This document shows positions 48,796 to 57,472 of a stretch of 64,000 nucleotides of DNA, piece after piece (within the stretch, counting starts at the first letter, position 1; each line of letters starts with the position of its first letter). Origin of the DNA: Alphaproteobacteria bacterium. GTDB taxonomy: Bacteria; Pseudomonadota; Alphaproteobacteria; CACIAM-22H2. Location of the stretch: contig JAWLHE010000007.1 in assembly GCA_041690495.1 (NCBI GenBank), positions 50,165-114,164 on the forward strand, written 5' to 3'. The notes under the pieces were generated by a model that was given only the letters and a program-made list of their open reading frames with translations, was not told the DNA's origin and made no database searches. Both the position numbers and the translations under genes were made by a program.

Positions 48796-49287
48796 GTGAA
48801 GGCATTGGAACGCCCCGTCGCCGGCTCTGACGTGCCGCAGGAGGCGTCGCTCGGAAACGGGACGAACCGGCGCGGCGCCAAGTCTGCCAGCGCGTTCCGA
48901 ACCATAAGCGAGGTTGCGAGCGAGCTCGATGTGCCGCAGCACGTGCTGCGCTTCTGGGAAACCCGCTTCGCGCAGATCCGCCCGCTGAAGCGCGCCGGCG
49001 GCCGCCGCTATTACCGCCCGGAAGATATCGAGCTGCTGCGCCGCATTCGCGGCCTGCTGTACCAGCACGGCTACACGATCAAAGGCGTGCAGAAGCTATT
49101 GCGCGACGGCGGACGGGCAACCGACGAGCCGGTCGCGGCCGTGGCGGACGAGGCGCCGCCGCAAGCCGTAGCCGCCAAGGCCGGCGTTGCGACAGCGACG
49201 GCCGGGGCACAGCCGGACCGGACGATCAAGGCGGTAATCGACGAGCTCGTCGAGCTCAGGAATCTGCTTCAGGCGCATCGGCGCTGA
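48796..49287 (+). CDS. MerR family transcriptional regulator (ihfA-linked)
   Basis: MerR HTH ([21 protein letters not shown]). Conserved position downstream of ihfA. Confidence 0.75.
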
Positions 49288-49414
49288 CGTACGCTCAAGC
49301 TGCCCCCGCGAAGCATTGAATGGTCTTTGTCGTTGCGGCTATAGTGCCGCGCGCCGTCACGGACGCATGGCAAGTCTTCGGCCCCGCCATGTACCGCGAA
49401 CGCCGCATTCCGGT

Positions 49415-49491
49415 CGGAGCGTAGCGCAGCCTGGTAGCGCATCTGCCTGGGGGGCAGGGGGTCGTGGGTTCAAATCCCGCCGCTCCGACCA
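49415..49491 (+). tRNA. tRNA-Pro (anticodon GGG)
   Basis: Cloverleaf read by hand: acceptor CGGAGCG/CGCUCCG, D-arm GCGCAGCCUGGUAGCGC, anticodon loop CUGGGGG (anticodon GGG with G37), T-arm GUGGGUUCAAAUCCCGC, discriminator A, encoded CCA. Confidence 0.9.
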
Positions 49492-49984
49492 TCATTCCCG
49501 AACCAGCGACATGAGCGAGGGGCGGCGCGCGAGACCGCCCCGCGGCCGATCGAGTGCGGGGAGCACTGCCTGTCGAAGGCGGGCCGGTCGACGATGACCC
49601 GATGTTCGCGTTGCAGCTGCCCGCCTATCGGGTTGCGACGAGCCCGGATGAGTGCGTTCATCGCAGCAAGGCCCCGGCTGCGTCGTCCAAAGGGATACAG
49701 TCATTCGTACCTGCCGCCTCGGACGGATGAGACATGGGGCGGGCTGAGGCTTTCGCATAGAGTTTCGCGGTTTGCGTCACCGCAATTGCGAATGAGCATT
49801 GCGCAACGATGCGGCGCAACAGGCGCGCGCTGCATCTATTGATGACCGACCTGGATCGATCGATGTCCCCGCGCGGATCTGTTCGGCAACAACGCGGATA
49901 TCCAGCGATGCGCTCATGTTCTACCGGCTCGTTGGCTGGTCATGCCGGTGATGGTCCTCCGGTCAGGCGAAGAATCCGGATCCC

Positions 49985-51535
49985 GTGATCGAGTATCAGG
50001 CGCGGCGCACCATTCGGGATGGGGGGCCGCGAGTCGAAACCCTCCGGCACCCGGCGGCCGCTCTTGCCGTCGCGTTGCTGCTCAGCGCGGTCCCTGCGCT
50101 GGTGCGCGCCGTCTACTATCCCGACTATCCCGGCACGGACGACAGTTTCATCCATGCCGCGATTATCGGGAATCTCGCGGCAGGGTGGGGCTGGGGCATC
50201 AATCCGGGCGAGCCGGTCAACCTGTCGACAAGCCCGTTGTTCACGCTGATCATGCTCGCAGTATCGCGGGTCTGGCCGGACGTCGTCGCTGCCGGCTCCG
50301 CGATGTCGGTGGCGGCGGTGTCGCTCGGCGTCTTTGGAACCTTCGTCGTCGCCGGACGGATGACGAACAATGCCGCCGTCGGCCTGTGCGCCGCCGCCGT
50401 TGCCGCGACGAATGTTCACCTCTGGCGATGGGCAGGCACGTTCATCGAGGCGCCGCCCGCGTATGCCGGCGTCATTGCGGTTCTGGTCGCGTTCGACTCT
50501 CTCTATCGCGCGCCGCTGCGGAAACCGGAGCTCGCCCGGTTCGTCGCGCTCGGCTTCTCGATCGGGATTCTCGCGCTGCTGAGATTCGAGTGCGGACTGC
50601 TCGGACTGGCGTTCTTCGCGCATCATCTCGTCAATGACCGCCGCTATCTGATTTCGCGCTACGCAGCAGCGGCATTCGGCCTTGCCGTGCCGCTCGCGGC
50701 ATGGGCGATATTCGCCGGGGCGACCTTTGGCGCCGTGATTCCGACGACCTTCGGAGCAAAGACCTCGGCGGGGCTGATCGTCTTCAATCCGGCTCTGCTC
50801 GTGCAGTATGCCCGCGTCCTCGGGTCGGGGTTTCTCGCGGGAATCGTCCTGACAGCCGGCGCGGTCGCGTTGCTGATCGTCGAGGGCGCATCCGGGGCAC
50901 TGCTTGCCGCGATACGCCGATCCGCCCTGTTCGTGGCATTCGCCGCCGCCGTTCTGGCGTTCTACTATCTCAAGACGGAATCGCTACAAAGCCCTGCCAG
51001 GTACATGCTGCCGGCAATGGCCGTCCTGCCGCTCGCGGCGGCACCGTTCCTCGCCGCCGCGTGGAGCGCCGCGCGTGCCTGGCGGGTCGGAGCCGTCGCG
51101 ATCATCGCCGTGCAGCTCGTCGTGGCGGCGCTCACCAACCATCTGCGGGTCGCGCCTGTCCTGGCCCAGATGAACGATGGTTATGTCGCCGCCATGAGCG
51201 CGGTCGCCGAGCAACTCAACCGGCGTTGCAGCGTCGGCGACGTGGTGCTGGTCGAATTCGACATCGGCGTGGTCTCGTATCGTCACGATCATGGCTGCCG
51301 GATCGCGGACGGCGGCGCGCTCGCCTCGCCGGAGTTGCGCGGCCTGACCATCGCCGAGAAGGTCGCGGTGACGCACGCACGCTACGTTGTCGAGTCGCTG
51401 GGCGATCCGGATCGCAGCGCGCTCGACCGGGTACCGGCTGCGACGCTGCGCTGGAGCCGTGCCTTCGCTTCGCACAGCGTTGGGGCGCCCGATCGCACGT
51501 ATGTCGTTCGTCTCTTCGAGATCGTGCCACCGTGA
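49985..51535 (+). CDS. Polytopic membrane protein, putative GT-C-fold glycosyltransferase (PMT_2/ArnT-like) with C-terminal soluble domain
   Basis: About 11-12 TM helices. First extracytoplasmic loop has an acidic DD-S-F-I-H motif (YYPDYPGTDDSFIH) resembling the DE-x-HF motif of GT39/GT83 enzymes. About 120-aa non-membrane C-terminus. Assignment inferential. Confidence 0.4.
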   Translation: MIEYQARRTIRDGGPRVETLRHPAAALAVALLLSAVPALVRAVYYPDYPGTDDSFIHAAIIGNLAAGWGWGINPGEPVNLSTSPLFTLIMLAVSRVWPDVVAAGSAMSVAAVSLGVFGTFVVAGRMTNNAAVGLCAAAVAATNVHLWRWAGTFIEAPPAYAGVIAVLVAFDSLYRAPLRKPELARFVALGFSIGILALLRFECGLLGLAFFAHHLVNDRRYLISRYAAAAFGLAVPLAAWAIFAGATFGAVIPTTFGAKTSAGLIVFNPALLVQYARVLGSGFLAGIVLTAGAVALLIVEGASGALLAAIRRSALFVAFAAAVLAFYYLKTESLQSPARYMLPAMAVLPLAAAPFLAAAWSAARAWRVGAVAIIAVQLVVAALTNHLRVAPVLAQMNDGYVAAMSAVAEQLNRRCSVGDVVLVEFDIGVVSYRHDHGCRIADGGALASPELRGLTIAEKVAVTHARYVVESLGDPDRSALDRVPAATLRWSRAFASHSVGAPDRTYVVRLFEIVPP

Positions 51536-51541
51536 CGGCCC

Positions 51542-51859
51542 GTGCGGCCGCGTTTGGAACCAGTCTGGCGCGTACGGGTTGGATCTGATGAAGACCTTTC
51601 CAGCGAGGCGGTTGTGGCTGACGTACTGCCCGACACTCACACGGAGCTATGGGTCCGCCCGGCCGGCGGCCGATGGCGCATTCAGCGCGCTGGCACCGGC
51701 CAGATACTCGGCGAGTACGAGGGGCGAGCGGAAGCGATCCAGGAAGCCCGGCTGATCGCGCAGCGTGAACCCGACACTGCGGTGAAGTTCGAGCATGCGA
51801 ACGGTACGATGGAAATTGTGCCGCTGCTCGGGCCCGGCTCCGCCAGCGGGCAGGGTTGA
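51542..51859 (+). CDS. DUF2188-like small protein
   Basis: Core WRIQRAGTGQILGEYEGRAEAIQEARLIAQREPDTAVKFEHANGTM matches the DUF2188 pattern. Starts 7 nt after the upstream gene, so likely co-transcribed. Start codon uncertain. Confidence 0.45.
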   Translation: MRPRLEPVWRVRVGSDEDLSSEAVVADVLPDTHTELWVRPAGGRWRIQRAGTGQILGEYEGRAEAIQEARLIAQREPDTAVKFEHANGTMEIVPLLGPGSASGQG

Positions 51860-52165
51860 AGAGGATGAAGAGCCGCCGCCGACCGGTACGCCCCGAGGAG
51901 GAGGACCGTGGTGCGCAGGCGGCCGCATTGCGCCGCCGCGAGCGCCCGGCGGGGCGCGTTCCAGCCGGAGACGAGGGGCTCAAGCCCAATCCCGACGCTC
52001 ACCCGGTCGAGGAGACCGTTTCGGACACCGAATAGCGGGGATCGGTCGGAGGCCGCACAATCGGCGGATGCTGGAGAGGCGCGGGCTTTCAACCTGTATT
52101 AACCAAACCTTCAGGTCTTAACCCTAGAACAAGTCCAAGGTCCTTGGACCCCTAGGGGAAATGCC

Positions 52166-54169
52166 GTGAGCAGTCGTCTTTCGAAAGACCGGCTGGGCGT
52201 GCGTACGAGCGCGAAGAGCGCCGGCCGCTCGGCAGTGGTAGCTATGGAGGCGCACTGCAAGATGCTCGAGCGACAGCTCCGCGATATGGAGCAACGCTTC
52301 CAGGACCTGCTCGACGCATCTTCCGACTGGATCTGGGAGACGGACCACGAGTTGCGTTTCACCGGGTTTTCCGGCCGGCTCGCCGAAGTGAGCGGCGTCG
52401 ATCCCAAGGCGCTGATCGGCAAGAAGCGCAGCGATCTGATGGACCCATCGATTGCGGAGGATGTCCGACGCGCTCACCTCGACGATCTCGCGGCGCTGCG
52501 TCCGTTCCGCGATTTTACATACCGGACGGTCACCGCAATGGGAACCCGCTACTTCACCATCAGCGGCAAGCCCTGCTTCGATGCAGACGGACGGTTTACC
52601 GGCTATCGCGGCACCGGCCGCGACATCACGGCCGAAATGGAGGCGCGGCAGAGTGCGCAAATGATCCATGCGCGCTTCGTCGACGCGATCGAGAGCGTTC
52701 CCGCGAGCCTGATGCTGCATGATGCCGAAGACCGGCTCGTGATCTGCAACACGATCACCCGCACGTTCTTCCCGGGTCTCGACGACCTGCTCGTGCCCGG
52801 AACGAAGTTCGAGGATCTCGTCAAGGCGCAGGCCGCGCGAGGAACCCTGCCTTCCGCGGTCGGCCGGGTCGACGATTGGCTCGAAGAGCGGATGGACGCG
52901 CACCGCAACCCCAAAGGGGCCATCACGCGCAAGCATTCTGACGGCCGCTGGATCAGGATCATCGAGCGAAAGACCTCCGAAGGCGGCACGATCGGCATCC
53001 GCGTCGACGTCACCGAGCTCAAGAGCAAGGAGGAGCAGCTCGCACAGCAGACGGCGCTGCTCCAGGCAACCCTCGACAACATCAGCCAGGGCCTGAGCGT
53101 CTACGATGCCGATCTGAAGCTGGTCGCGTTCAACGCACGCTACATCGAGATGCTCGGCGTGCCGCCGGAATTCGGGCAGATCGGCCGGCCCTTCCAGGAC
53201 GTCGTGCGCTGGAACGCGGAGCACGGCGAATATGGACCGGGAACGCCGGACGAGCATATCGCCAGTCGCATAGCGCTGGTGACCAGGCCGGAGCCACATC
53301 ATCTCGAACGCCGGCGGCCCGACGGCACGCATATCGAGATTCAAGGACGCCCGATGCCGGGCGGAGGCTTCGTCACGACCTACACGGACGTGACCGAGCG
53401 CAAGCAGTTCCAGGAGACGCTCGAGGCCAATGCGGCGCGGCTCGAGGAGTACGCGCAGGAGCTCAAGAAATCGAACACCGAGCTCGAGCAGTTCGCCTAT
53501 GTCGCATCGCATGACTTGCAAGAGCCGCTGCGGATGGTGGGCAGCTACTGCCAACTCCTGCAGCGGCGGTACAAGGGCAAGCTCGACAAGGACGCGGACG
53601 AGTTCATCGGCTTCGCCGTCGAAGGCGCCACGCGCATGCAGCGGATGATCAACGATCTGCTCACATATTCGCGCGTCGGCCGCACAGGAAAGGGGATGAC
53701 GGATGTCGCGATCGAGGAGATCGCCAGGACTGCGGTCGCGAACCTCCAGGCCGCGATCGCGGAAAGCGGGGCAACGGTGACATGGGCGGCGCTGCCATCG
53801 GTCATGGGAGAGAAGGTGCAGCTCCTGCAGCTCTTCCAGAACCTCATCGGCAACGCGATCAAGTTCCGCGCCGAGGGCCGCAGCGTCGAGGTCCGGATCG
53901 ATGCCCGGCAGGAGGGCGACGCCTGGCACTTCACCGTTTGCGACAATGGCATCGGCATCGAGCCGCAATATGCCGAGCGCATCTTCCTGATCTTTCAGCG
54001 CCTGCACGACCGCTCGAAATACCAGGGCACGGGCATCGGCCTGGCGGTGTGCAAGAAGGTCGTCGAGCATCATGGCGGCCGCATCTGGATCGAATCAGAG
54101 CCCGGCAAGGGAACCACGTTCCATTTCACATTGAGCCGCGATCCCCTGGCTCGAAAGGAGTCCGCATGA
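52166..54169 (+). CDS. Multi-PAS sensor histidine kinase
   Basis: No TM segments. About 3 PAS/PAC repeats ([34 protein letters not shown]), a HisKA H-box [12 protein letters not shown], and N/G1/F/G2 boxes of HATPase_c ([22 protein letters not shown]). GTG start with RBS aggggaa. Confidence 0.85.
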
Positions 54170-54624
54170 CCGCGCGCATGACCAATCGCCCGATCGAGAT
54201 TCTCCTGGTCGAGGACAATCTCGGCGACGCGCGTCTGACACAGGAAGCCCTGAAAGAGGGCAAGGTGCGCAACAACCTCCACCATGCCCGCGACGGCGTC
54301 GAGGCGATGGCGTTCCTGCGCCGCGACGGGGCGAACGCCGACGCCCCGAGGCCGGATCTGGTGCTGCTGGACCTCAACCTGCCGCGCAAGGACGGTCGCG
54401 AGGTGCTGGGCGAGATGAAGGAGGATCCCGATCTCCGGCTGATCCCCGTGGTCGTGCTGACGACCTCGGAAGCCGAGCAGGACGTGCTTCGGACATACGA
54501 GCTCCGCGCGAACTGCTACATCACCAAGCCCGTGGACCTGGAGAAGTTCATCACGATCGTCCGCAGCATCGAGGATTTCTGGCTGACGATTGTCCGCCTG
54601 CCGTCGTTCGACGCGCACGTCTGA
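54166..54624 (+). CDS. Single-domain response regulator (CheY-like receiver)
   Basis: REC domain with the acidic pocket (LLVEDNLGD), a phospho-Asp context ([12 protein letters not shown]) and the conserved Lys region (YITKP). ATGA overlap with the kinase stop. Confidence 0.85.
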
Positions 54625-54649
54625 CCCGGGCAGGAAGGCGTCAGCGCGC

Positions 54650-55804
54650 ATGCTCGTCGGCACGAAAATCTCGGTTCTCCTCGTCGAGGACAACCCCGGC
54701 GATGCGCGGCTGACACGCGAGATGCTGGGCGAGGTGGAATCGTTCGAGTTCGACCTCGAACATGTCGAGCGCCTCGCCGATGCGATTGCCGCACTTGCGC
54801 GCGCCAGGTTCGACGTCATTCTTCTCGATCTCTCGCTCCCCGACTCGCAAGGCCTCGACGGCATCGCGCAGCTGCAGAAATCCGCGCCGACTGTTCCGGT
54901 CGTGGTGCTGACCGGCCGCAGCGACGACGCGGTGGCGATCGAAGTAGTCAAGGCCGGCGCCGACGACTACCTGATCAAGGGGCAGAGCGATGGACAGTTG
55001 ATGGTGCGGGCCATCCGCTATTCGGTCGAGCGCGCGCGCGGCCGGCTGCTGCTGGTCGACGCCAAGGCGAAAGCCGAGATCGCCAACCGCGTCAAGACCG
55101 AGTTCCTCGCCAACATGAGCCATGAGCTGCGCACGCCGCTCAATGCCATCATGGGATTCTCGGAACTGCTCAAGGCGGAGATGCTGGGCCCGCTGGGCCA
55201 CCCCTCCTACGCCGAGTACGCGAAGGATATCTACCAGAGCGCGGCGCATCTGCTGCAGATCATCAACGACATCCTCGATCTCTCGAAGGTCGAGGCCGGC
55301 AAGATCGAGCTCGACGAGCGGCCCATCGATCTCAATACGCTGGTAACGGCGTCGCTGCGCCTGATCACCGAGCGCGCGAGCGAGGCCGGCGTCGAGATCG
55401 TCAATGAGCTGCCGGCCGACCTGCCGCGACTCTATGCCGACGAGCGGCTGCTCAAGCAGATCCTGATCAACCTGCTGTCGAACGCCGTCAAGTTCACCAA
55501 GAGCGGCGGCTCGGTGAAGGTCCAGGCCTGGCGTGAGCCGACGGGTGTTCTGGCGCTCGCTGTCGCGGATACCGGCATCGGCATCTCCGAGGAGAACCTG
55601 CCGCGCGTGATGGAGCCGTTCCGCCAGGCCGACGCGACGCTGAGCCGCAAATACGAGGGCACCGGGCTCGGTCTGCCGCTGGTGAAATCCTTCGTCGAGC
55701 TGCATCGCGGCGTTTTCGAGCTCAAGAGCCAGGTGAATGCCGGGACGACGGCGCTGGCGCGATTCCCGCGCGACCGGGTGATGGAGAGCGCCGCCGCCGG
55801 CTGA
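54650..55804 (+). CDS. Hybrid response-regulator/histidine kinase (REC-HisKA-HATPase)
   Basis: N-terminal REC (VLLVEDNPGD, ILLDLSLPD, YLIKG), then an H-box SHELRTPLNAI and an HATPase_c (NLLSNAVKFT, DTGIGIS, GTGLGLPL). Confidence 0.85.
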   Translation: MLVGTKISVLLVEDNPGDARLTREMLGEVESFEFDLEHVERLADAIAALARARFDVILLDLSLPDSQGLDGIAQLQKSAPTVPVVVLTGRSDDAVAIEVVKAGADDYLIKGQSDGQLMVRAIRYSVERARGRLLLVDAKAKAEIANRVKTEFLANMSHELRTPLNAIMGFSELLKAEMLGPLGHPSYAEYAKDIYQSAAHLLQIINDILDLSKVEAGKIELDERPIDLNTLVTASLRLITERASEAGVEIVNELPADLPRLYADERLLKQILINLLSNAVKFTKSGGSVKVQAWREPTGVLALAVADTGIGISEENLPRVMEPFRQADATLSRKYEGTGLGLPLVKSFVELHRGVFELKSQVNAGTTALARFPRDRVMESAAAG

Positions 55805-55809
55805 TGCGT

Positions 55810-57048
55810 CTACGGATCCTCGGGTCTCCGGTTGGCGGCGAACCACAGCCAGCCCGCGACCTGCGCTGCGAAGACGATGGCGAAGGCCGCCTGATGGCCG
55901 GCCGGTGAGAAGCGGGCGCCTTCGGGCGTGAACCAGCTGATGATCGCGCCGACGCCGGCCTGGATGGCAAAGGCGCAGAGGAAGATCAGCAGGTTCAACC
56001 CGGAATTGACCCGTCCGGCCAGCTCTGCCGGGTACTGCCGGGTCAGATACGAGAATCCCAGGACGGATCCGGTGCCGAGCAGGACGAACGCGACCCACAG
56101 AACCGCACTGCCGGTCGTCACGTTCATCACCAGCGGCACCTGCACAATCAGATAGAGGCCGACCGCAGAAGAGAGCAGGGTGCGGTGACGGATGCCCGCG
56201 CGCATCAGCCGATCGGCAATCACGCCGCCGAGGGCGTAGCCGGGAATCATCGCCGCGGCGACGAAGAACAGCACGGCCGCGGTTGCTTCGCGGTCGAACC
56301 CGGCGACGTCGCGCAACCACGGCCCGGTCCACAGCCCCTGATAGGCGAGAAAGCTCGCCTGCGCCGTGACGGTGACCGGCGCCACGCTCCAGAACTTTGC
56401 CGAGCCAAGAATGGCGCCGACCGCGCGGACCTGGTCCCTGAGATGGCCGCCGGTGCCGGCGCCGCGATCCGGCACGGCGCTCCAGATGTAGGCTGACGCC
56501 GCAGCCGTGAGTCCGGCGAGGCACAGGAACAGGAAACGCCAGTCGGTGATCTTGAGCAGCCATTCGACGGGCAGGGTCGCGACGGTGGCGCCAAGGCCGC
56601 CGAAGCCGAGAATGAATCCGTTGGCGGCGGCAAGGCGCTGCGGCGGCCAGAACATCACATTGGCCTTGAAGCTCGCCATCAGGCATGACGAGACGCCGAG
56701 CCCGATCAGCGCGCGCCCGAGCGCGAGCTGCGGTACGTCGCGGGCGAGGGCGAACACGATCGACCCCGCGGCGGCGCAGAGCAGCAGGGACGCCTCGACC
56801 CGGCGTGGCCCGAAGCGATCGAGCAGGATGCCGAGCGGGAGCTGAAACAGGGCGAAGGTAATGAAATAGGCGCTGGTCAGCAGCCCCAGCCCCGCCGCAT
56901 CGAGTCCGAGATCGGCGACCAGATCCGGGCCGATCACGGCGTTGACGGTGCGATAGAGATAGCTGAGGAAATATCCGGCGGCGAACGGCAGGAAGCAGGT
57001 GGCGATCAGCCTGGGAAGGCCGACCGGCCCGACGGCGGTGCTCGGCAA
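55810..57048 (-). CDS. MFS transporter
   Basis: 12-TM major facilitator topology and an LDRFGPRR loop motif. Confidence 0.75.
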   Translation of the reverse strand: MPSTAVGPVGLPRLIATCFLPFAAGYFLSYLYRTVNAVIGPDLVADLGLDAAGLGLLTSAYFITFALFQLPLGILLDRFGPRRVEASLLLCAAAGSIVFALARDVPQLALGRALIGLGVSSCLMASFKANVMFWPPQRLAAANGFILGFGGLGATVATLPVEWLLKITDWRFLFLCLAGLTAAASAYIWSAVPDRGAGTGGHLRDQVRAVGAILGSAKFWSVAPVTVTAQASFLAYQGLWTGPWLRDVAGFDREATAAVLFFVAAAMIPGYALGGVIADRLMRAGIRHRTLLSSAVGLYLIVQVPLVMNVTTGSAVLWVAFVLLGTGSVLGFSYLTRQYPAELAGRVNSGLNLLIFLCAFAIQAGVGAIISWFTPEGARFSPAGHQAAFAIVFAAQVAGWLWFAANRRPEDP

Positions 57049-57049
57049 A

Positions 57050-57376
57050 CTAAGCCTCGGTGAGTAGTGCTCGCCCTTCGGGCGTCAGACGGCAGACCAG
57101 CCAATCCGGCTTGAGCGGGTTGGCGAACCATTGTTCAGCCCAGCCCTGCTCGATGCAAGCGCGGATCGTGCGGGCATCCACCTGCTTGCCGTCCGCGTCG
57201 AACAGCGGCAGCTTGCCGCCGGGCTGGCCGAGGCCGGAGGAAAGCCAGGCGCGTTGTGCGTCGGTTGGCTGGCCGGGCGCCGATGGGAGACCGCGGGGCC
57301 GCTTCGGCCACGAGGAGTCGGGTTGGGCCTCGCGCCGCGGGCGGAACGGAACCACGGGATTCGCCGGATCGGACAT
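57050..57376 (-). CDS. Hypothetical protein, translationally coupled to downstream MFS gene
   Basis: Stop at 57050 abuts the MFS start at 57048. Pro/Arg-rich N-terminus and a globular C-terminal part. No domain recognised. Start chosen at MSDPANP (57376); the longer frame to 57433 is possible. Confidence 0.4.
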   Translation of the reverse strand: MSDPANPVVPFRPRREAQPDSSWPKRPRGLPSAPGQPTDAQRAWLSSGLGQPGGKLPLFDADGKQVDARTIRACIEQGWAEQWFANPLKPDWLVCRLTPEGRALLTEA

Positions 57377-57472
57377 CCTTGCCGCACCCCCTGCCTTTGC
57401 CGCGACTTTAGGCCAGATACCGGTAACCGCCAAGCTTGGCTTCCGCGATGGCGGGGATTAGCTTTGGAAACG

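What the first reader, a model, noticed from the sequence alone, without database searches (positions are those of the whole stretch)
49415..55804. tRNA-Pro-proximal module: GT-C-like membrane protein coupled to DUF2188 protein, followed by a three-gene phosphorelay
Upstream of the tRNA-Pro gene the synteny (bamE...ihfA-merR) is highly conserved. Downstream there is a 490-bp non-coding stretch, then a 516-aa 11-12-TM protein whose first outer loop carries a DD-SFIH motif like the DE-xHF catalytic motif of GT-C glycosyl/mannosyltransferases. After a 7-nt spacer comes a DUF2188-type small protein, then a cytoplasmic multi-PAS histidine kinase, a stand-alone receiver, and a receiver-kinase hybrid. 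A polytopic transferase tightly paired with a DUF2188 protein is not a described functional unit. tRNA 3' flanks are classic sites for lineage-specific insertions. No integrase or direct repeat of the tRNA 3' end was found, so this may be an old or non-mobile insertion.
Basis: partly seen in the sequence, partly recalled or inferred. Interest (0 to 1): 0.55.

Follow-up and report, generated by a model that had tools for sequence, protein, structure and literature searches.

The report
Orphan membrane glycosyltransferase beside conserved phosphorelay
The region holds a real but uncharacterised membrane sugar-transferase left over from an eroded cell-surface-sugar gene cluster, a small DUF2188 gene that is only a recent lineage-specific neighbour, and a three-gene signalling pathway that relatives keep with or without the transferase, so it is a mosaic of ordinary parts and not a new functional unit.

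Summary

The proposed GT-C/DUF2188 unit fails:
- The 7-nt spacer comes from the longest ORF. The orthologue's ATG, a conserved GAGG and NCBI's 81-aa model put the start at 51614, 78 nt after the GT-C stop.
- DUF2188 flanks the GT-C in 1 of 56 distinct homologous loci, the closest relative.
- It has no hydrophobic segment, while the GT-C C-terminal domain is periplasmic by analogy.

Other corrections:
In one relative it stays with the kinase operon although the GT-C is absent.
- The "non-coding" 493 bp holds a 50-bp remnant of a FabG-like reductase gene that is intact in relatives.
- Relatives carry reductase, Wzy_C, sometimes FkbH, GNAT and deacetylase genes, then GT-C, upstream of the same HK, RR, REC-HK, MFS block. 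Two relatives lack the GT-C.
- Distant homologues sit in surface-polysaccharide clusters.
- No integrase, att repeat or GC shift was found.

Verdict: an unclassified GT-C subfamily in a decaying glycan cassette. Interest is low to moderate.

The parts
49415..49491 (+). tRNA-Pro (anticodon GGG). It marks the left boundary of the variable segment.
   Evidence: ARAGORN. Rfam tRNA 60 bits. The same gene sits at the same place in L062 and on the opposite strand in L067. A promoter-like site lies at 49316-49345.
49565..49614 (+). 50-bp remnant of a FabG-like short-chain reductase (SDR) gene around its YxxxK active-site codons. The rest of the gene is deleted.
   Evidence: blastn: 80% identity to L062 8933-8983, inside the L062 adh_short gene. 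tblastn matches EHCLSKAGRSTMT to EYCISKTGLSTMT. The intact gene in relatives matches NCBIfam PRK12745 at 357 bits.
49623..49766 (+). Conserved non-coding sequence upstream of the GT-C gene, presumably its promoter or leader region.
   Evidence: 74% identity to L062 9240-9383, which lies between the SDR stop and the GT-C start.
49985..51535 (+). 516-aa GT-C (class A) membrane glycosyltransferase with a predicted polyprenyl-phosphate-sugar donor. Catalytic motif D52-D53, phosphate-binding R200, C-terminal alpha/beta domain from about residue 415 to 516.
51614..51859 (+). 81-aa DUF2188 protein, no hydrophobic segment. A lineage-specific insertion between the GT-C and the small ORF.
   Evidence: PF09954 at 27 bits. 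Start fixed by the L062 ATG, a conserved GAGG and NCBI's 81-aa model. Present only in L062 among the GT-C loci. Only 4 other relatives at 72-83% identity in 5.8 billion proteins by the word-indexed search. dN/dS 0.16. Maximum 19-residue hydropathy 0.39.
51865..52035 (+).
   Evidence: Found in L062, L001, L002/3, L063, L064/5 and L066. Length differences keep the frame. dN/dS 0.08-0.17 in three comparisons and 0.42 in one. No Pfam, NCBIfam or PADLOC hit. In L066 it is present although the GT-C is absent.
52099..52149 (+). Conserved upstream element of the kinase operon: TTAACC-N14-TTAACC (52099-52124) and the palindrome GTCCAAGG-T-CCTTGGAC (52133-52149).
   Evidence: Nearly identical in L062. 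A related TTAAC-N6-TTTA motif sits at the same position in L001, L063, L064 and L066. No Rfam match. Function not tested.
52166..54169 (+). Multi-PAS histidine kinase (PAS_4, two PAS_7, HisKA with H449, HATPase_c). NCBI's model starts at 52262.
   Evidence: Pfam. H-box. Orthologues at 64-89% identity in L062, L001, L063, L064, L066 and L067.
54166..54624 (+). Stand-alone receiver (152 aa, phospho-acceptor D69). Its start overlaps the kinase stop by 4 nt.
   Evidence: PF00072 at 65.7 bits. Sequence read.
54650..55804 (+). REC-HisKA-HATPase hybrid kinase (384 aa, D60 and H158). The longest ORF starts at 54590.
   Evidence: Pfam. Start inferred from the 385-389-aa orthologues. Motifs.
55810..57048 (-). 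MFS transporter, convergent with the phosphorelay. It is the first gene of the conserved right flank.
   Evidence: PF07690. Orthologues in L001, L063, L064, L066 and L067.
57050..57433 (-). Conserved hypothetical protein (about 108-127 aa) that always follows the MFS gene.
   Evidence: No family hit. Orthologues in L001, L063, L064, L066 and L067 at E of about 1e-50.

Best explanation
The segment is a mosaic of three independent parts and not one module.

(1) The 516-aa protein is a class-A GT-C glycosyltransferase.
- Inferred mechanism: it sits in the inner membrane with an N-terminal cytoplasmic tail.
- It binds a polyprenyl-phosphate-linked sugar at the periplasmic face. D53 of the D52-D53 motif is at the tip of the first juxtamembrane helix. 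R200 holds the lipid phosphate.
- It transfers the sugar to an envelope glycan, most likely as a post-polymerisation side-branch on a surface polysaccharide. The small C-terminal periplasmic domain would help bind the acceptor.
- It is the last survivor of a variable glycan cassette. Relatives have a FabG-like reductase, a Wzy_C protein, sometimes FkbH, an ACP-like protein, GNAT and deacetylase, then the GT-C. In this genome the reductase is reduced to a 50-bp remnant and Wzy_C is gone. No donor synthase or flippase lies within the 64 kb.

(2) DUF2188 is a recent lineage-specific insertion of about 320 bp between the GT-C and a conserved 56-aa charged ORF. It is maintained by selection but is not a general partner of the GT-C.

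(3) The PAS kinase, the single receiver and the REC-kinase hybrid form a multi-step two-component pathway.
- Inferred: the kinase phosphorylates the free receiver and/or the hybrid's receiver, which gates the hybrid's own kinase.
- No DNA-binding output is encoded here.
- The pathway has its own conserved upstream element. It is retained with the same right flank in relatives whether or not the GT-C is present.

The tRNA-Pro flank is a place where gene content has been gained and lost, not an integration site of a mobile element.
For: GT-C identity:
- The AF2 model has pLDDT 93.
- The family profile hits AftB at E=3.9e-10. Window D52-D53 align to AftB D61-D62, and window R200 (LLRFE) aligns to AftB R221 (LVRPE). 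D62 is catalytic and R221 is essential (PMC12041299).
- 11 of 42 family members reach PF13231 PMT_2.
- D52, D53, H57, R148, E155, R200, E202, K259, R339 and Y340 are invariant.
- dN/dS is 0.18.

Glycan context of homologues:
- GT2, deacetylase, GT-C in L004.
- A GT2::GT-C fusion, P0041, inside a glycosyltransferase cluster.
- Exosortase, Wzy_C and glycosyltransferases in L006.
- Wzc-like, Wza-like and Acyl_transf_3 proteins are recurrent neighbours.

Cassette erosion: reductase remnant; intact cassettes in relatives.

No glycan genes were found in the ORFs scanned across the window.

DUF2188 as an insertion.

Independent phosphorelay:
- L066 (kinase 76% identical) and L067 (64%) keep HK, RR and hybrid without a GT-C.
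- A conserved upstream motif precedes the kinase.

Not a mobile element: no att repeat, GC 0.64-0.68 throughout, and no integrase in the scans.
Against: - No biochemical data exist for any member of this GT-C subfamily. Donor, acceptor and stereochemistry are inferred only from fold, motifs and neighbours.
- The window protein itself misses every Pfam and NCBIfam model.
- The partners a GT-C needs (donor synthase, flippase) were not found in the window, so activity depends on unseen genes elsewhere.
- The glycan genes sit directly upstream of the kinase operon in at least 7 loci with two different left flanks. That is more persistent than expected for unrelated neighbours, so a regulatory link cannot be excluded.
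- DUF2188 is under purifying selection and is kept in at least 3-4 related genomes, so it has some function in this position.
- The number of membrane helices and the periplasmic location of the C-terminal domain rest on analogy with AftB and ArnT, not on a topology predictor. My crude hydropathy scan was not decisive.
Confidence: 0.72

Rival explanations
1. The GT-C and DUF2188 form a translationally coupled two-protein unit, with DUF2188 docking on the C-terminal domain of the transferase.
For: - The two genes are adjacent on the same strand in the window and in L062.
- Contig-length matches suggest the same arrangement in two more relatives.
- Both genes are under purifying selection.
Against: - The real gap is 78 nt and DUF2188 has its own GAGG ribosome-binding site.
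- DUF2188 is absent next to the GT-C in 55 of 56 distinct loci, including five close alphaproteobacterial relatives.
- DUF2188 has no signal peptide or membrane segment. The GT-C C-terminal domain is periplasmic in AftB-type enzymes, so the two would lie on opposite sides of the membrane.
- DUF2188 proteins occur in unrelated, defence-linked operons (bioRxiv 10.1101/2022.04.27.489752). The window protein hits the PADLOC candidate family PDC-S16 at E=2.5e-5.
Confidence: 0.05
2. The phosphorelay senses or controls the envelope glycan made by the upstream cassette (Wzy_C, GT-C and others). The 56-aa charged protein would be an accessory of this circuit. On this reading the neighbourhood is a functional regulon and not an accident.
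For: - Glycan genes lie immediately upstream of the same kinase operon in the window, L062, L001, L002, L063, L064, L066 and L067. These span 64-89% kinase identity and two different left flanks.
- The small ORF is retained between cassette and kinase even when the GT-C is lost.
Against: - The cassette content changes freely while the phosphorelay stays constant.
- The kinase has its own conserved upstream element.
- No DNA-binding output is encoded locally.
- Distant GT-C homologues never have this phosphorelay next to them.
- Adjacency could simply be inherited within one family-level clade.
Confidence: 0.2
3. The segment downstream of tRNA-Pro is an old, degraded genomic island that integrated at the tRNA gene.
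For: - Gene content right after tRNA-Pro differs between the window, L062 and L067.
- A pseudogene remnant lies at the junction.
- The GT-C family is rare and patchily spread over many phyla. Only 16 of 185,579 species genomes were found, by a pattern-seeded search, and 46 proteins in the word-indexed search.
Against: - No integrase and no repeat of the tRNA 3' end.
- GC content and GC3 are the same as the flanks.
- The same cassette, phosphorelay and right flank occur in relatives where the left neighbour is a PAS-GAF kinase and globin block instead of tRNA-Pro. The junction is therefore a rearrangement or deletion point and not an att site.
Confidence: 0.08

Closest known systems
AftB, mycobacterial terminal beta-(1->2)-arabinofuranosyltransferase (PDB 9dlf, 9dlh)
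   Same: - It is the only solved structure detectable by sequence (profile E=3.9e-10 over about 240 N-terminal residues).
- The DD motif at the tip of the first juxtamembrane helix and the LxRPE arginine (AftB D61-D62 and R221) align with window D52-D53 and R200.
- The architecture is similar: a multi-helix membrane domain plus a C-terminal periplasmic domain.
   Different: - Identity is only 15-17%.
- AftB is about 100-150 residues longer.
- The host is an alphaproteobacterium with no arabinan.
- No DprE1/DprE2 or phosphoribosyltransferase genes lie nearby. The neighbouring reductase in relatives is FabG-like (PRK12745), not DprE2.
- Homologues pair with GT2 enzymes, which points to hexose-type donors and not decaprenyl-phospho-arabinose.
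- Retaining or inverting chemistry is unknown.
ArnT (with ArnC and ArnD), aminoarabinose transfer to lipid A (PDB 5f15, 5ezm)
   Same: - In one distant homologue (L004) the gene order GT2, polysaccharide deacetylase, GT-C mirrors ArnC, ArnD, ArnT.
   Different: - Identity is 11-16%.
- The profile search finds no ArnT sequence match.
- The window has no ArnC or ArnD equivalents.
- The usual neighbours of the family are exopolysaccharide and O-antigen genes, not lipid A genes.
Three-component periplasmic glycan-modification systems: GtrA/GtrB/Gtr* and the GT136 pentofuranose system (PMC11127046)
   Same: - The logic is the same: a lipid-phosphate sugar is made in the cytoplasm, flipped, and added by a GT-C to an already polymerised surface glycan.
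- The family's placement in Wzx/Wzy, Wzc and Wza clusters, next to or fused with GT2 enzymes, fits this scheme.
   Different: - In the window only the GT-C component is present.
- Sequence similarity to Gtr or GT136 proteins was not tested.
- No member of this subfamily has a demonstrated activity.
DUF2188 (PF09954) small proteins
   Same: The 81-aa protein passes the Pfam threshold (27 bits against 22).
   Different: DUF2188 has no known function. Papers place it in defence-type operons controlled by CapH/CapP-like regulators, not with glycosyltransferases. Here it sits between a GT-C and a small charged ORF.
Sensor kinase with a single-domain receiver and a REC-kinase hybrid, as in phytochrome-associated gene sets of Rhodopseudomonas (from my own knowledge, not checked here)
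   Same: The gene set and order are the same: sensor kinase, CheY-like receiver overlapping its stop codon, REC-HisKA-HATPase hybrid. All phospho-acceptor residues are present.
   Different: The input domains are PAS_4 and PAS_7, not a phytochrome. The signal and the output are unknown. NCBIfam gives only sub-threshold partial matches, for example NahK/ErcS' at 177 bits against a cut-off of 1500.

Membership tests
GT-C fold glycosyltransferases, class A (GT-CA) | A conserved N-terminal module of seven membrane helices with two juxtamembrane helices between helices 1 and 2. | tested here: met
   [not shown]
GT-C fold glycosyltransferases, class A (GT-CA) | A catalytically essential aspartate at the tip of juxtamembrane helix 1, in the first periplasmic loop. 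| tested here: met
   D52-D53 are invariant in 42 homologues. They start helix 52-66 of the model and align with AftB D61-D62. D62A abolishes AftB activity.
GT-C fold glycosyltransferases, class A (GT-CA) | Use of a polyprenyl-phosphate-linked sugar donor and periplasmic transfer. | not testable with these tools
   Only inferred, from R200 aligning with AftB R221 (phosphate binding) and from GT2 donor-synthase genes adjacent to or fused with homologues.
Pfam PF13231 PMT_2 (the family that covers ArnT-like and PMT-like proteins) | Score above the Pfam gathering threshold (26.1 bits). | tested here: not met
   The window protein has no PMT_2 hit even at E<=0.1. 11 of 42 family members match at E<=0.01, best 7.4e-08. 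The window protein is therefore a divergent relative and not a formal member.
AftB-type arabinofuranosyltransferase | Sequence membership plus a decaprenyl-phospho-arabinose pathway (DprE1/DprE2, phosphoribosyltransferase) and an arabinan acceptor. | tested here: not met
   Only remote homology, 15-17% identity. The reductase next to the gene in relatives is FabG-like PRK12745, not DprE2. No such pathway genes appear in the window ORFs I scanned.
Three-component periplasmic glycosylation system (Gtr-like) | A co-located donor synthase (GT2 or phosphoribosyltransferase), a flippase and a GT-C. | tested here: not met
   In the window only the GT-C was found. The set is partly present in distant homologues L004 and L008. 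The partners may be encoded elsewhere in the genome, which could not be examined.
DUF2188 (PF09954) | Score above the gathering threshold (22 bits). | tested here: met
   26.2 bits for the 105-aa ORF and 27.0 bits for the 81-aa protein.
tRNA-integrated genomic island | An integrase, a direct repeat of the tRNA 3' end, and atypical composition. | tested here: not met
   No repeat at up to 3 mismatches in 64 kb. No integrase domain in the scanned ORFs. GC is 0.64-0.68, like the flanks.
Two-component phosphorelay | HisKA H-box, HATPase_c, and a receiver with the conserved aspartate in each component. | tested here: met
   The Pfam domains are all above threshold. Kinase SHDLQEP with H449, hybrid SHELRTP with H158, receiver LLDLNLP with D69, hybrid LLDLSLP with D60. 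Phosphotransfer itself is not testable here.

The most novel reading that the evidence does not exclude
The roughly 60-cluster GT-C subfamily would be a Gram-negative counterpart of AftB. It has no Pfam or NCBIfam model and no studied member. Like AftB it would use the DD aspartate as a nucleophile, retaining configuration, and would decorate exported polysaccharides, so it would found a new CAZy family. In this alphaproteobacterial clade the glycan cassette, the unclassified 56-aa charged protein and the PAS kinase, receiver and REC-kinase pathway would then form one envelope-glycan sensing and control circuit.
Probability: 0.1. Interest if true: 0.5.

Novelty: new member of a known kind. Interest (0 to 1): 0.22.

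Why it matters
Practically, it corrects an over-reading. A 7-nt "coupling" taken from the longest ORF and adjacency in a single genome suggested a new two-protein unit. Orthologue-guided start calling and about 56 comparison loci dissolve that.

Scientifically there are three modest points:
- A rare, unmodelled GT-C subfamily recurs in exopolysaccharide and O-antigen clusters of many phyla. It has about 46 proteins in the word-indexed search of 5.8 billion and 176 representatives at E<1e-30. It is remotely related to mycobacterial AftB, so it is a candidate for a new periplasmic glycan-decorating activity.
- The window gives a clear example of a glycan cassette eroding next to a stable signalling operon.

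None of this touches a long-standing open question.

Tried and rejected
- DprE2 idea. The AftB hit and an adjacent adh_short gene in relatives suggested an arabinose-donor pathway. I rejected it because the reductase is FabG-like PRK12745 at 357 bits and no phosphoribosyltransferase or DprE1 was found.
- Organism identification. Exact-sequence look-ups returned only unnamed NCBI records on a 312,292-bp contig. The genome is not among the species representatives scanned. It stays an unnamed high-GC alphaproteobacterium. The closest named relatives are a soil Alphaproteobacteria MAG at 65% and Reyranellaceae at 46%.
- Global MAFFT alignment of the tRNA to GT-C spacer misplaced the homologous blocks. 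I replaced it with local blastn.
- Rfam on 49200-52300 found only the tRNA. The promoter and terminator scan gave nothing useful inside the segment.
- The metagenome locus scan recovered only distant homologues, at most 43% identity. I could therefore not inspect the two DUF2188 relatives P0313 and P0314.
- Neighbour clustering with crude longest-ORF calling is noisy in high-GC DNA, so I used only the recurrent clusters.
- Hydropathy counting of membrane helices was inconclusive.

Full report
**What is in the sequence**

The window is high-GC DNA (0.60-0.70) from an unnamed alphaproteobacterium.

- ARAGORN and Rfam find one tRNA, tRNA-Pro(GGG), at 49415-49491 +.
- Upstream lie H+-pyrophosphatase, bamE(-), yceD, plsX, fabH, ihfA and a merR-family gene.
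- Downstream, after 493 bp without a convincing ORF, come these + strand genes: a 516-aa ORF (49985-51535), a DUF2188 ORF, a PAS histidine kinase (52166-54169), a single receiver (54166-54624) and a REC-HisKA-HATPase hybrid.
- Then follow a convergent MFS transporter and a conserved hypothetical gene.

**The membrane protein is a GT-C glycosyltransferase**

- The window protein hits no Pfam or NCBIfam model.
- Only 46 homologues exist among 5.8 billion clustered proteins by the word-indexed search. Some reach PF13231 PMT_2, and 11 of 42 do so at E<=0.01.
- A profile of 42 homologues (A1) finds 176 representatives at E<1e-30 and 18,653 at E<1e-3 among 1.84 billion. This is a small, tight subfamily inside a very large superfamily.
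- Against PDB sequences the profile finds mycobacterial AftB (E=3.9e-10).
- AlphaFold2 with this alignment gives pLDDT 93.3 and pTM 0.92.
- In the HMM alignment the invariant D52-D53 align with AftB D61-D62, and the invariant R200 (LLRFE) aligns with AftB R221 (LVRPE). In AftB, D62 is the catalytic residue at the tip of juxtamembrane helix 1 and R221 stabilises the lipid phosphate (PMC12041299).
- dN/dS against the closest orthologue is 0.18, so the gene is maintained.

**The DUF2188 coupling does not hold**

- The 7-nt spacer belongs to the longest ORF (GTG 51542).
- In the closest relative (L062, GT-C 80% identical) the orthologue starts with ATG exactly where the window has GTG 51614. A conserved GAGG lies 5 nt upstream in both. 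Upstream of that, conservation collapses and an indel changes the frame relative to the GT-C.
- GC3 of the 24-codon extension is 0.54 against 0.76 for the rest.
- NCBI's own model of this protein is 81 aa. The gap is 78 nt.
- More importantly, phmmer of the DUF2188 protein against all ORFs of 65 fetched loci (56 distinct GT-C loci) finds it only in L062.
- In the other close alphaproteobacterial relatives (L001/L009, L002/3, L063, L064/5; GT-C 60-65% identical) the gene 7 nt after the GT-C stop is a different ORF of about 60 aa and highly charged.
- That ORF is also present in L062 and in the window (51865-52035, MKSRRRPVRPEEEDRGAQ...), immediately after DUF2188.
- DUF2188 is therefore an insertion of about 320 bp between the GT-C and this small ORF in one narrow lineage. 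Only four other relatives, at 72-83% identity, exist in the protein collection.
- DUF2188 has no hydrophobic segment. The C-terminal domain of AftB-type GT-Cs is periplasmic, so the proposed docking is also topologically unlikely.
- In the papers I found, DUF2188 appears in defence-type operons. The window protein weakly matches the PADLOC candidate family PDC-S16 (E=2.5e-5).

**The small ORF**

- It is conserved in seven loci. Its length differences keep the frame, and dN/dS is 0.08-0.17 in three comparisons and 0.42 in one.
- It has no Pfam, NCBIfam or PADLOC match.
- In L066, where the GT-C is absent, it still precedes the kinase operon. It therefore travels with the phosphorelay side of the locus.

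**The "non-coding" stretch**

Local blastn against L062 splits it into three blocks:
- the tRNA with about 30 nt of flank (87% identity);
- a 50-bp block (49565-49614, 80%) that matches the interior of L062's short-chain reductase gene at its YxxxK codons (tblastn);
- a 144-bp block (49623-49766, 74%) that matches the spacer between that gene and the GT-C.

Two deletions have removed most of a FabG-like reductase gene, which matches PRK12745 at 357 bits in L001.

**Comparative picture**

- L062: H+-PPase ... ihfA, merR, tRNA-Pro, reductase, GT-C, DUF2188, small ORF, kinase.
- L001, L002 and L063: a PAS-GAF kinase, a response regulator(-), a globin(-), then reductase, Wzy_C, (in L063 also deacetylase(-), GNAT(-), a 101-aa protein and an FkbH-domain protein), GT-C, small ORF, kinase, receiver, hybrid, MFS(-), hypothetical(-), CutA1, MFS, Cys/Met-PLP enzyme(-).
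- L066 (kinase 76% identical): the same left and right flanks and cassette, but no GT-C.
- L067 (kinase 64% identical): the window's left flank through merR and tRNA-Pro, then five other genes, then Wzy_C directly followed by kinase, receiver and hybrid, with no GT-C.

The phosphorelay and its right flank are thus the stable element of this clade. The genes between it and whatever lies to the left are a variable glycan cassette. The window has the most reduced version.

I found no integrase, no copy of the tRNA 3' end and no compositional break. Pfam scans of the ORFs I scanned across the window found only housekeeping and transport genes, and no GT2, flippase, Wzy or Wzx.

**What the GT-C probably does**

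Distant homologues (30-43% identity) come from Acidobacteriota, Holophagae, Fimbriimonadaceae, Gammaproteobacteria, Kiritimatiellia, a Mycobacterium MAG, Nitrospirae, Ignavibacteria and others. They sit among surface-polysaccharide genes:
- GT2, polysaccharide deacetylase, GT-C in L004, the ArnC/ArnD/ArnT order;
- a GT2::GT-C fusion in a glycosyltransferase cluster;
- exosortase EpsH/EpsI, Wzy_C and GDP-sugar enzymes;
- recurrent Wzc-like, Wza-like and Acyl_transf_3 neighbours.

This fits the general scheme of periplasmic post-polymerisation glycosylation by a lipid-phosphate-sugar synthase, a flippase and a GT-C (PMC11127046).

I therefore infer a polyprenyl-phosphate-hexose-type donor and a surface polysaccharide acceptor. 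Neither is shown.

**The phosphorelay**

- The kinase has PAS_4, two PAS_7, HisKA (H449) and HATPase_c.
- The receiver's ATG overlaps the kinase stop by 4 nt.
- The hybrid (best start ATG 54650, 384 aa) has REC (D60), HisKA (H158) and HATPase_c.
- No output domain is encoded locally.
- A conserved element precedes the kinase: TTAACC-N14-TTAACC at 52099-52124 and the palindrome GTCCAAGG-T-CCTTGGAC at 52133-52149. A related TTAAC-N6-TTTA motif occurs in the other relatives. This suggests the operon has its own control region. It has no Rfam match.
- Whether the phosphorelay regulates the neighbouring glycan genes stays open. I give that about 0.2.

**Verdict**

- The interpretation as a new functional unit or an insertion module is not supported.
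- What is there is an uncharacterised member of the GT-C superfamily stranded by cassette erosion, a lineage-specific DUF2188 insertion, an overlooked small conserved ORF, and a clade-conserved three-gene two-component pathway.
- Novelty: new member of a known kind. Interest: low to moderate.

Noticed in passing
window 51865-52035 (+): A conserved 56-aa, highly charged ORF (12 K+R, 12 D+E) with no family assignment. It lies between DUF2188 and the kinase. It is found in seven related loci and is retained in L066, where the GT-C is absent.
   Followed up: partly
window 49565-49614: A 50-bp remnant of a FabG-like short-chain reductase gene around the YxxxK codons. The gene is intact in L062, L001, L063 and L066. 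The "non-coding" spacer is a decayed gene.
   Followed up: yes
window 52099-52149; same position in L062, L001, L063, L064, L066: A conserved upstream element of the kinase operon: TTAACC-N14-TTAACC followed by the palindrome GTCCAAGG-T-CCTTGGAC. Other relatives have TTAAC-N6-TTTA, which resembles a CtrA-type TTAA-N7-TTAA box (resemblance from memory only), and a different palindrome (GGCGA-A-TCGCC) at the same place.
   Followed up: partly
L067 5481-5557: In this relative, tRNA-Pro(GGG) after merR is on the opposite strand from the window and L062. This suggests a local inversion at the same junction.
   Followed up: no
window 54193-54241 and 54668-54716: The N-terminal receiver segments of the stand-alone receiver and of the hybrid kinase share 84% nucleotide identity over 49 nt, so the two REC domains are probably paralogous.
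   Followed up: no
L063 7874-9882; L066 7687-9728; L007 9576-10867: The glycan cassette of relatives includes an FkbH-domain protein (TIGR01686, 266 bits) preceded by a protein of about 100 aa that may be a carrier protein, plus GNAT and deacetylase genes. A Bryobacteraceae homologue has a 76-aa ORF and a KAS III gene right after the GT-C. This hints at an acylated or glycerate-bearing glycan.
   Followed up: partly
L008 8001-10247 (P0041); L004 6328-9569: One homologue is a natural GT2::GT-C fusion of 748 aa. Another locus has GT2, polysaccharide deacetylase, GT-C in the ArnC/ArnD/ArnT order. Both are useful clues to the donor type for this subfamily.
   Followed up: partly
window 51614-51859: The DUF2188 protein weakly matches the PADLOC candidate defence family PDC-S16 (E=2.5e-5). 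In L062 its stop overlaps the start of the small ORF by 4 nt (ATGA).
   Followed up: partly
window 57050-57433 (-): A conserved hypothetical protein without any family hit. It always sits just downstream of the convergent MFS gene in relatives (E of about 1e-50).
   Followed up: no
window 52166 vs 52262: NCBI's model of the kinase is 635 aa (start at M33). The 667-aa ORF start is conserved at the DNA level in L062, and relatives are called at 665-667 aa, so the annotated start may be too short.
   Followed up: partly
window 49316-49345: A sigma-70-like promoter match (TTGAAT-18-TATAGT) about 70 nt upstream of tRNA-Pro, inside a block that is 87% conserved with L062.
   Followed up: no
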